Of a stretch of 64,000 nt of DNA, positions 57,403 to 57,468 are shown piece by piece. Made by a program: the position numbers and the translations under genes. This DNA is from Chiloscyllium plagiosum (taxonomy: Eukaryota). The stretch is from positions 31,732,883-31,796,882 of the forward strand of contig NC_057719.1 in NCBI RefSeq assembly GCF_004010195.1. Direction: 5' to 3'. Each line of letters begins with the position of its first letter. Within the stretch, counting starts at the first letter, position 1. The notes under the pieces were generated by a model that saw only the letters and a list, made by a program, of their open reading frames with translations, did no database searches and was not told the origin of the DNA.

Positions 57403-57432
57403 CCTGTGCCCGAAACGTCGAATCTCCTGTTA

Positions 57433-57468
57433 ATTCCTGAAGAAGGGCCTGTGCCCGAAACGTCGAAT
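57433..57468 (+). ncRNA. Minimal hammerhead ribozyme motif, intact core, 4-bp stem I
   Basis: attc-CTGAAGA-a-GGGC ctgt GCCC-GAAA-CG-TC-gaat. Confidence 0.8.

What the first reader, a model, noticed from the sequence alone, without database searches (positions are those of the whole stretch)
57415..57463. Partial tandem duplication builds a complete monomeric type III hammerhead
Seen: a half unit (cctgtgcccgaaacgtcgaatctcctgtt, 57403-57431) sits directly before a full unit. The plus strand can fold as ACGUC^GAAU-[loop CUCCUGUUA]-AUUC-CUGAAGA-A-GGGC CUGU GCCC-GAAACGU. Stem I is 57420-23 with 57433-36 (4 bp), stem II is 4 bp, stem III is 57415-18 with 57460-63 (4 bp), and the canonical GUC cleavage site follows 57419. 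Inference: a dimer-dependent minimal ribozyme has been turned into a cis-acting one, a possible route for new self-cleaving RNAs to arise. Caveats: the upstream inverted arm (57347-57402) would compete by forming a long hairpin, and the site abuts an assembly gap.
Basis: partly seen in the sequence, partly recalled or inferred. Interest (0 to 1): 0.72.

Follow-up and report, generated by a model that had tools for sequence, protein, structure and literature searches.

The report
Buried hammerhead in Penelope insertion scar
A 29-base repeat at the centre of a head-to-head insertion of a likely Penelope-type jumping gene in a shark-like genome lets a complete self-cutting RNA motif be drawn on one strand, but the neighbouring inverted copy is predicted to bury it in a long hairpin, so it is likely an inert by-product of a known insertion pattern.

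Summary
The sequence is as described: 57403-57431 repeats 57448-57476 exactly, and 57415-57463 holds every hammerhead core base with three 4-bp stems. It lies at the centre of a head-to-head insertion of a Penelope-like end module inside a CR1-like LINE. Four older pairs of the same unit in the window have this layout, with 13-16-bp target duplications; this scan has noted the family many times in this genome. The 'type III' fold is one half of the published dimer fold of Penelope minimal hammerheads, and any partial copy spanning the ACGU palindrome gives it on paper. Cut out alone, the piece folds within the range of 69 natural type III-pattern motifs, so slow in vitro cleavage is plausible. 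In place, the upstream inverted arm is predicted to pair the cleavage strand before the catalytic strand is made (fold probability about 1e-26). Stem I is short and loop 2 lacks the usual final A. Reads could not confirm the locus: none of the runs laid showed it. Verdict: probably real, probably inert junction filler; a modest illustration of permutation by duplication.

The parts
57085..57346 (.). Assembly gap (262 N); predicted to hide the rest of the inverted arm, its tail, a target duplication and host LINE sequence
   Evidence: a paralog of the host LINE has about 467 bases between the matching points
57347..57402 (-). Inverted arm: copy of the end module on the minus strand, starting at its second base, with an intact minimal hammerhead (core at 57399-57393); runs into the gap
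   Evidence: 56 of 56 complementary to 57434-57489; minimal type I descriptor hit
57403..57431 (+). Half unit: positions 16-44 of the module; also the exact fold-back complement of 57360-57388 across a 14-nt loop; supplies the ACGUC/GAAU cleavage strand
57432..57432 (+). One extra A between half and full unit
57433..57528 (+). Full unit: Penelope-like end module with minimal type I hammerhead (57433-57468), ending without the roughly 33-nt tail
   Evidence: family reads run on into the tail behind 57528 (table 7)
57415..57463 (+). On-paper type III hammerhead: stems III, I, II of 4 bp each, loop I 9 nt, loop II CUGU, cleavage predicted after C57419
57527..59274 (+). Host LINE resumes (2-nt TT overlap with the insert at 57527-28)
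   Evidence: 83% to the paralog at 455-2153; contigs of other copies diverge before 57527 (table 7)
55991..57084 (+). Host LINE upstream part, ORF1 with a GDSL/SGNH-like domain (the CR1 label is recalled from that trait)
   Evidence: 80% to the paralog at 2621-3708; PF13472 E 2e-6, below Pfam's cut-off

Best explanation
This is a head-to-head pair of likely Penelope-like retroelement end modules inside an older LINE, and the 29-base half unit is likely filler copied from the element itself during insertion; the complete hammerhead that it allows on paper is predicted to stay buried in a long hairpin and is likely inert. Inferred steps: both ends of the cut target prime reverse transcription of the element RNA, both cDNAs stop near the first base of the module, one folds back or jumps and recopies 29 bases, and the two ends are joined. 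Any RNA coming from upstream on the plus strand makes the inverted arm first; the arm pairs the half unit (29 bp) as it emerges and later swaps to the full unit (56 bp or more), so cleavage strand and catalytic strand are never free together. Cut out alone, the 49-70-nt piece would probably cleave slowly at high magnesium, like engineered dimer mimics of such motifs.
For: Shown: 4 of 4 other head-to-head pairs of this unit in the window have 13-16-bp target duplications and the tail on one arm only, as described for Penelope-like insertions (PMC3846280, PMC8557442, passages). Other truncated arms start at module positions 5-14, close to the half unit's 16. Contigs of run X3 join an arm ending at 57399-57402 directly to positions 57433-57459, i.e. 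head-to-head pairs of this subfamily without filler (4 of the 15 joints shown, of 146). The half unit is the exact fold-back of 57360-57388. Computed: type III fold probability 0.046 for the bare 49-mer, 0.006 for 57405-57475, 6e-4 with the 3' end, 3e-26 with the arm; it stays at or below 3e-4 for any 5' start up to 57395, and in a chain grown from 57347 the cleavage strand is 0.1% free at lengths 57431-57463 while the catalytic strand is 4% free from 57475 on. With 35-nt flanks it ranks below 69 of 69 control motifs; 2 of 69 controls have a stem I as short as 4 bp and 61 of 69 end loop 2 in A, this one in U. The minus-strand core is also fully paired. The breakpoints are unremarkable: rank 139 of 588 possible partial copies. 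An RT-family ORF fragment lies upstream of the solo copy at 49047, across a gap. Published minimal hammerheads of these elements cleave weakly even as dimers or with a built-in helix III (PMC4209133).
Against: No read confirms the locus. In isolation the fold ranks above 22 of 69 natural type III-pattern motifs, so the motif itself is not dead on thermodynamic grounds. Equilibrium folding ignores tertiary contacts, proteins and kinetics; one Penelope-like hammerhead cleaves only with its element's protein (PMC11167929). The left junction and target duplication are hidden in the gap, and the gap (262 N) is about 290 bases shorter than an intact host LINE plus arm would need. No GIY-YIG domain was found linked to this unit. 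The fold-back/jump origin is inferred from one junction.
Confidence: 0.72

Rival explanations
1. The half unit is an assembly or library artefact at the edge of a gap, for example a fold-back chimera filled in during gap closing.
For: It abuts a 262-N gap; all three pieces are 100% identical over the stretches they share, against 83-88% for the arms of the four other pairs; it is exactly a fold-back of the left arm; complex Penelope insertions are known to trouble short-read assemblies (PMC8557442, passage); no laid run shows the junctions.
Against: An artefact needs two separate jumps plus an extra base. The repeat is 29 nt, so a single 31-mer (57402-57432) spans both junctions (coordinates). 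The right arm carries a letter (A57492) that 175 of 177 family reads lack and joins the LINE at a clean family end point, which fits a real, slightly aged copy. The laid runs gave no long exact piece of the flanking LINE either (longest listed 93 nt with 6 differences), so they probably do not hold this locus and their silence says little.
Confidence: 0.12
2. The insertion was a plain head-to-head pair and the half unit arose later at the DNA level, by slippage or repair at the palindrome's centre.
For: A near-perfect palindrome is prone to fold-back synthesis (general knowledge); the half unit is such a fold-back copy.
Against: Junction variety is already the rule among these insertions in the window, and self-priming at inverted junctions has been proposed for Penelope insertion itself (PMC3846280, passage). 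No letter distinguishes the two timings.
Confidence: 0.1
3. The locus yields a working single-strand type III ribozyme in cells, through a transcript starting at about 57399-57415, removal of the arm, or protein-assisted refolding.
For: All core bases and a GUC site are present; the isolated fold is within the natural range; the subfamily has a fully paired 4-bp stem I, unlike the solo copy at 49047; family copies are transcribed in a related genome's RNA run.
Against: Only a 5' start within about 17 bases escapes the arm; the element's own start is inferred to lie at 57433, downstream of the cleavage strand; no loop 1-loop 2 contact of the usual kind is evident (PMC6155905 reports large rate losses without it); a single young copy shows no sign of selection.
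Confidence: 0.05

Closest known systems
Minimal type I hammerheads (min-HHR) of metazoan Penelope-like elements and their dimer fold (Cervera and De la Pena 2014, PMC4209133; read parts 1-2 of 4, supplements not seen)
   Same: No loop III, palindromic 15.2/16.2 (ACGU), extra base between positions 9 and 10.1, G10.1-C11.1, helix I of 4 bp. The fold drawn here is one catalytic centre of the tandem dimer: the upstream copy's GUC strand on the downstream copy's core.
   Different: The upstream partner is a 29-nt fragment only 9 nt away, so the result is a compact type III permutation with one site; helix II is 4 bp, shorter than the 7-8 bp given for Schistosoma; an inverted arm masks it.
Insertion architecture of endonuclease-bearing Penelope-like elements (PMC3846280, PMC8557442, passages; PMC11167929, parts 1-2 of 4)
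   Same: Head-to-head inverted end modules, partial tandems, 30-40-bp tail at one end only, target duplications.
   Different: No ORF between the modules; the tandem piece is an internal 29-nt part of the hammerhead, not the sequence upstream of the module.
Natural type III hammerheads (plant satellite RNAs, LTR retrozymes, prokaryote/phage motifs; PMC6155905 and PMC7229834, passages)
   Same: Order of blocks (site, core, GAAA) and all core bases.
   Different: Stem I 4 bp against a median of 7 in 69 pattern-matched phage-collection motifs; loop 2 ends in U, not A (61 of 69 end in A); no family, no covariation, masked in context.
Tandem-duplication model for circular permutation of ribozymes (Eckert et al. 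2023, PMC10085705, passages)
   Same: A partial tandem duplication yields a permuted order of the same blocks.
   Different: There a proposal by analogy to proteins; here a possible single snapshot, without evidence of activity or spread.

Membership tests
Hammerhead ribozyme, type III | Conserved core (CUGANGA, GAAA, NUH) in type III order with three helices | tested here: met
Hammerhead ribozyme, type III | Active fold accessible in the natural RNA context | tested here: not met
   about 1e-26 with the upstream arm; below 69 of 69 controls at 35-nt flanks; computed, not measured
Hammerhead ribozyme, type III | Helix sizes and loop 1-loop 2 tertiary contact of natural motifs | tested here: not met
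   stem I 4 bp (2 of 69 controls this short), loop 2 ends in U (61 of 69 controls end in A); an unusual contact cannot be excluded
Hammerhead ribozyme, type III | Match to an Rfam hammerhead model | tested here: inconclusive
   no hammerhead hit, but 0 of 20 control loci reached a gathering score either
Hammerhead ribozyme, type III | Site-specific self-cleavage as a monomer | not testable with these tools
   needs in vitro transcription
min-HHR of Penelope-like elements | No loop III, palindromic 15.2-16.2, extra base after A9, G10.1-C11.1, helix I 4-5 bp | tested here: met
   57433-57468 and 57402-57367 against PMC4209133
Penelope-like element insertion | Inverted end modules, one-sided 30-40-bp tail, target duplication | tested here: met
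   4 of 4 other pairs in the window; at this locus the right end is tail-less and the left end is in the gap
Penelope-like element insertion | Linked ORF with telomerase-like RT and GIY-YIG endonuclease | tested here: inconclusive
   fragment 48074-48337, upstream of the solo copy across a 522-N gap, is 74-80% identical to 4 bamboo-shark proteins, 2 of them with RVT_1; no GIY-YIG hit in the 3 scanned; RT clade not tested
Non-LTR retrozyme | Tandem repeats of some hundred bases with a complete type I hammerhead in each unit | tested here: not met
   only one complete plus-strand core; no tandem array here; definition from bioRxiv 10.64898/2026.07.22.740005 (part 1 of 5 and passages)

The most novel reading that the evidence does not exclude
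Template jumps at Penelope insertion junctions are a standing factory that turns dimer-dependent type I hammerheads into compact monomeric type III ribozymes. This locus is a snapshot of that permutation: its 49-nt core self-cleaves once freed, and among the very many copies in shark genomes are arm-free half-plus-full siblings that cut host transcripts.
Probability: 0.12. Interest if true: 0.62.

Novelty: new variant of a known kind. Interest (0 to 1): 0.24.

Why it matters
As it stands it is a tidy but minor case: one junction variant of an abundant, described kind of insertion. It would matter if the freed RNA cleaves and arm-free siblings exist, because that would give natural intermediates for a proposed but undocumented route (in my searches) from type I to type III hammerheads in animals, where type I dominates, and a cheap bench test of it. 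The junction is also a small clue to how Penelope-like elements join their two cDNA ends.

Tried and rejected
Genome-wide count of half-plus-full units: impossible, no genome is held for this window. Sequencing runs: 20 of 24 listed rows hold part of 57347-59300, best share 0.62; no RNA holder listed. Laying 4 runs: no listed piece spans the half unit or gives a long exact match to the flank; only 15 of 146 joints and 24 of about 129,000 pieces were shown, so neither presence nor absence follows. In raw RNA run X21 (not shown to be the window's species; about 2 in 100 of it read, 387 reads laid) there is no depth on 57373-57428 and no pile-up of starts or ends at the family's cut site; a fragmented poly(A) single-cell library from a genome that may lack the locus cannot test cleavage. 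Rfam: only generic microRNA-hairpin matches below threshold, rejected as an effect of the palindrome; the hammerhead miss is uninformative. Considered arguing that the isolated motif cannot fold: rejected, since 22 of 69 controls score lower. ESM Atlas on 48074-48337: nothing above 0.86. Pfam on 6 window frames: only weak GDSL/OSK hits in 2. Lunse et al. on dimer cleavage (PMC5785218) is not held; I know it only through PMC6765202's passage. Earlier scan notes: none near this place, none by sequence, none for a half-plus-full junction (one search listed only family-level notes, 8 of 167 shown).

Full report
Observation. 57403-57431 repeats 57448-57476 in 29 of 29 bases, 57347-57402 is the exact reverse complement of 57434-57489, and a 262-N gap ends at 57346. 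One extra A (57432) separates half and full unit. Stems III, I and II have 4 Watson-Crick pairs each; stems I and III cannot be extended. A type III descriptor finds this site and one loose site with a long loop I at 60384 in the window, against 1 hit in 60 shuffles.

What the element is. The unit recurs at eight other places of the window with long matches. Four are head-to-head pairs (5345-5536, 9818-10035, 16484-16693, 61674-61822); all four have 13-16-bp target duplications and carry a roughly 33-nt extension on one arm only. This is the insertion layout described for endonuclease-bearing Penelope-like elements: inverted adjacent module, partial tandems, one-sided 30-40-bp tail (PMC3846280 and PMC8557442, passages); PMC11167929 (parts 1-2 of 4) ties the tail to two start sites of reverse transcription. 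The motif fits the minimal hammerhead of these elements: no loop III, ACGU palindrome, extra base after A9, G10.1-C11.1, short helix I (PMC4209133, parts 1-2 of 4; its supplementary kinetics were not seen). Upstream of the solo copy at 49047, across a 522-N gap, an ORF fragment is 74-80% identical to four Chiloscyllium punctatum proteins, two with an RVT_1 domain; no GIY-YIG domain was found, so the Penelope label rests on the motif and the layout. The insert sits in an older LINE, 80-83% identical to a paralog in the window; 'CR1-like' is my recalled label for a LINE with a GDSL-like ORF1 (weak hit). The right junction is at 57527-28: other LINE copies diverge before 57527 and family reads run on into the tail behind 57528. 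So this arm is tail-less and the tail is predicted to be in the gap.

Origin of the half unit (inferred). Its start (module position 16) is like that of other truncated arms (5-14), and contigs of run X3 show this subfamily's arm joined head to head without filler (4 of 15 joints shown). The unusual point is that the truncated arm stops after 29 bases and the module restarts from its first base. The half unit is the exact fold-back complement of 57360-57388 over a 14-nt loop, so either self-priming of the left cDNA or a template jump by the right cDNA would give it; self-priming at such junctions was proposed in PMC3846280. Five of the pieces aligned begin at or next to the first base of helix I, where the solo copy reads TCATTCC (an initiator-like word by my recall); this suggests that the element RNA starts there, which would leave the half unit outside the element's own transcript. 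D. virilis Penelope has an internal promoter (PMC2377424, passages). Earlier notes of this scan make the same point on other DNA of this genome.

Is it a working ribozyme? The fold is one catalytic centre of the known tandem dimer: the upstream copy's GUC strand on the downstream copy's core, joined through the ACGU palindromes. Any of 588 partial copies that span the palindrome gives it on paper, and the real breakpoints (without the extra A) rank 139th by fold probability. Probability of the three-helix fold at 37 C: 0.046 for 57415-57463, 0.006 for 57405-57475 (the full unit's own GAAU competes for the same AUUC), 6e-4 with the 3' end and 3e-26 with the arm. In a chain grown from 57347 the cleavage strand is 99.9% paired by the time the half unit is complete, before the catalytic strand exists; from 57475 on the arm switches to the full unit and the catalytic strand is 96% paired. 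Only 5' starts from about 57399 to 57415 escape. The minus-strand motif is buried too.

Control, partly against my reading. A type III pattern in the viral collection gave 123 loci, 107 distinct matches, of which 69 have stems of at least 4/4/3 pairs (38 dropped). By the same recipe the window's motif scores 0.064 and 0.014 with 0 and 10 flanking bases, above 22 of 69 in both cases, and 3e-16 with 35 bases, below all 69. So the freed motif is within the natural range and the arm is what kills it. It is weak in anatomy: stem I of 4 bp (median 7; 2 of 69 this short) and loop 2 ending in U (61 of 69 end in A). These controls are pattern matches, not tested ribozymes, and 0 of 20 reached an Rfam threshold, which also makes Rfam's silence on the window uninformative. 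In print, loop-loop contacts are needed for fast cleavage at low magnesium (PMC6155905, passages), and a minimal hammerhead given a dimer-mimicking helix III cleaved mostly at non-physiological magnesium (PMC4209133). I put slow in vitro cleavage of the freed piece at about 60% and activity in cells at about 5%.

Is it real DNA? Not settled. No genome is held. The best run shares 0.62 of the words, and the three DNA runs laid gave no long exact piece of the locus, so they hold the repeat families but probably not this site. For reality: two jumps and an extra base are needed, one 31-mer spans both junctions, and the right arm has a letter (A57492) that 175 of 177 family RNA reads lack. Against: the gap edge, the 100% identity of the pieces against 83-88% in older pairs, and a gap about 290 bases shorter than expected.

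Novelty. Motif, dimer fold and insertion layout are published; this scan has noted the family repeatedly in this genome (147 notes fit 'hammerhead', 8 shown). Permutation of ribozymes by tandem duplication is proposed in PMC10085705 (passages). My five paper searches listed no report of a natural half-plus-full type III from a Penelope motif, but the library lacks most subscription papers, including the dimer study PMC5785218, and I read few of the listed papers. Also seen: PMC6765202 and PMC7229834 (passages) and bioRxiv 10.64898/2026.07.22.740005 (part 1 of 5 and passages). Verdict: new variant of a known kind, probably real, probably inert; interest 0.24.

Noticed in passing
window 57513-57518: This subfamily has AATAAA near its 3' end where the other copies in the window do not; in RNA run X21, 33 reads leave the unit behind 57527 with an A-rich loose end (agreement 0.62). 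The module may act as a portable polyadenylation signal.
   Followed up: no
window 57433-57436 / 57465-57468 versus 49047-49082: Stem I is a full 4 bp in this subfamily but only 2 bp plus a U-U mismatch in the solo copy at 49047; about 83% of family RNA reads in X21 carry the pairing letter at 57467.
   Followed up: partly
window 31597-31756, 60349-60499, 61322-61669, 35011, 61825: Other repeat families with minimal hammerhead cores and palindromic layouts; RT-like remains at 33505-34278.
   Followed up: partly
window 60384-60447: A second, loose type III descriptor hit with a long loop I at the centre of another head-to-head pair; probably also buried in its hairpin.
   Followed up: no
window 57085-57346: The gap is about 290 bases shorter than intact host LINE plus hidden arm would need: a mis-sized gap or a deletion at insertion.
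   Followed up: partly
L001-L123 (IMG/VR): 69 well-formed type III hammerhead-pattern motifs in viral contigs, many with a 7-bp stem I and A-rich loop 2; 0 of 20 loci tested reached an Rfam gathering score.
   Followed up: partly
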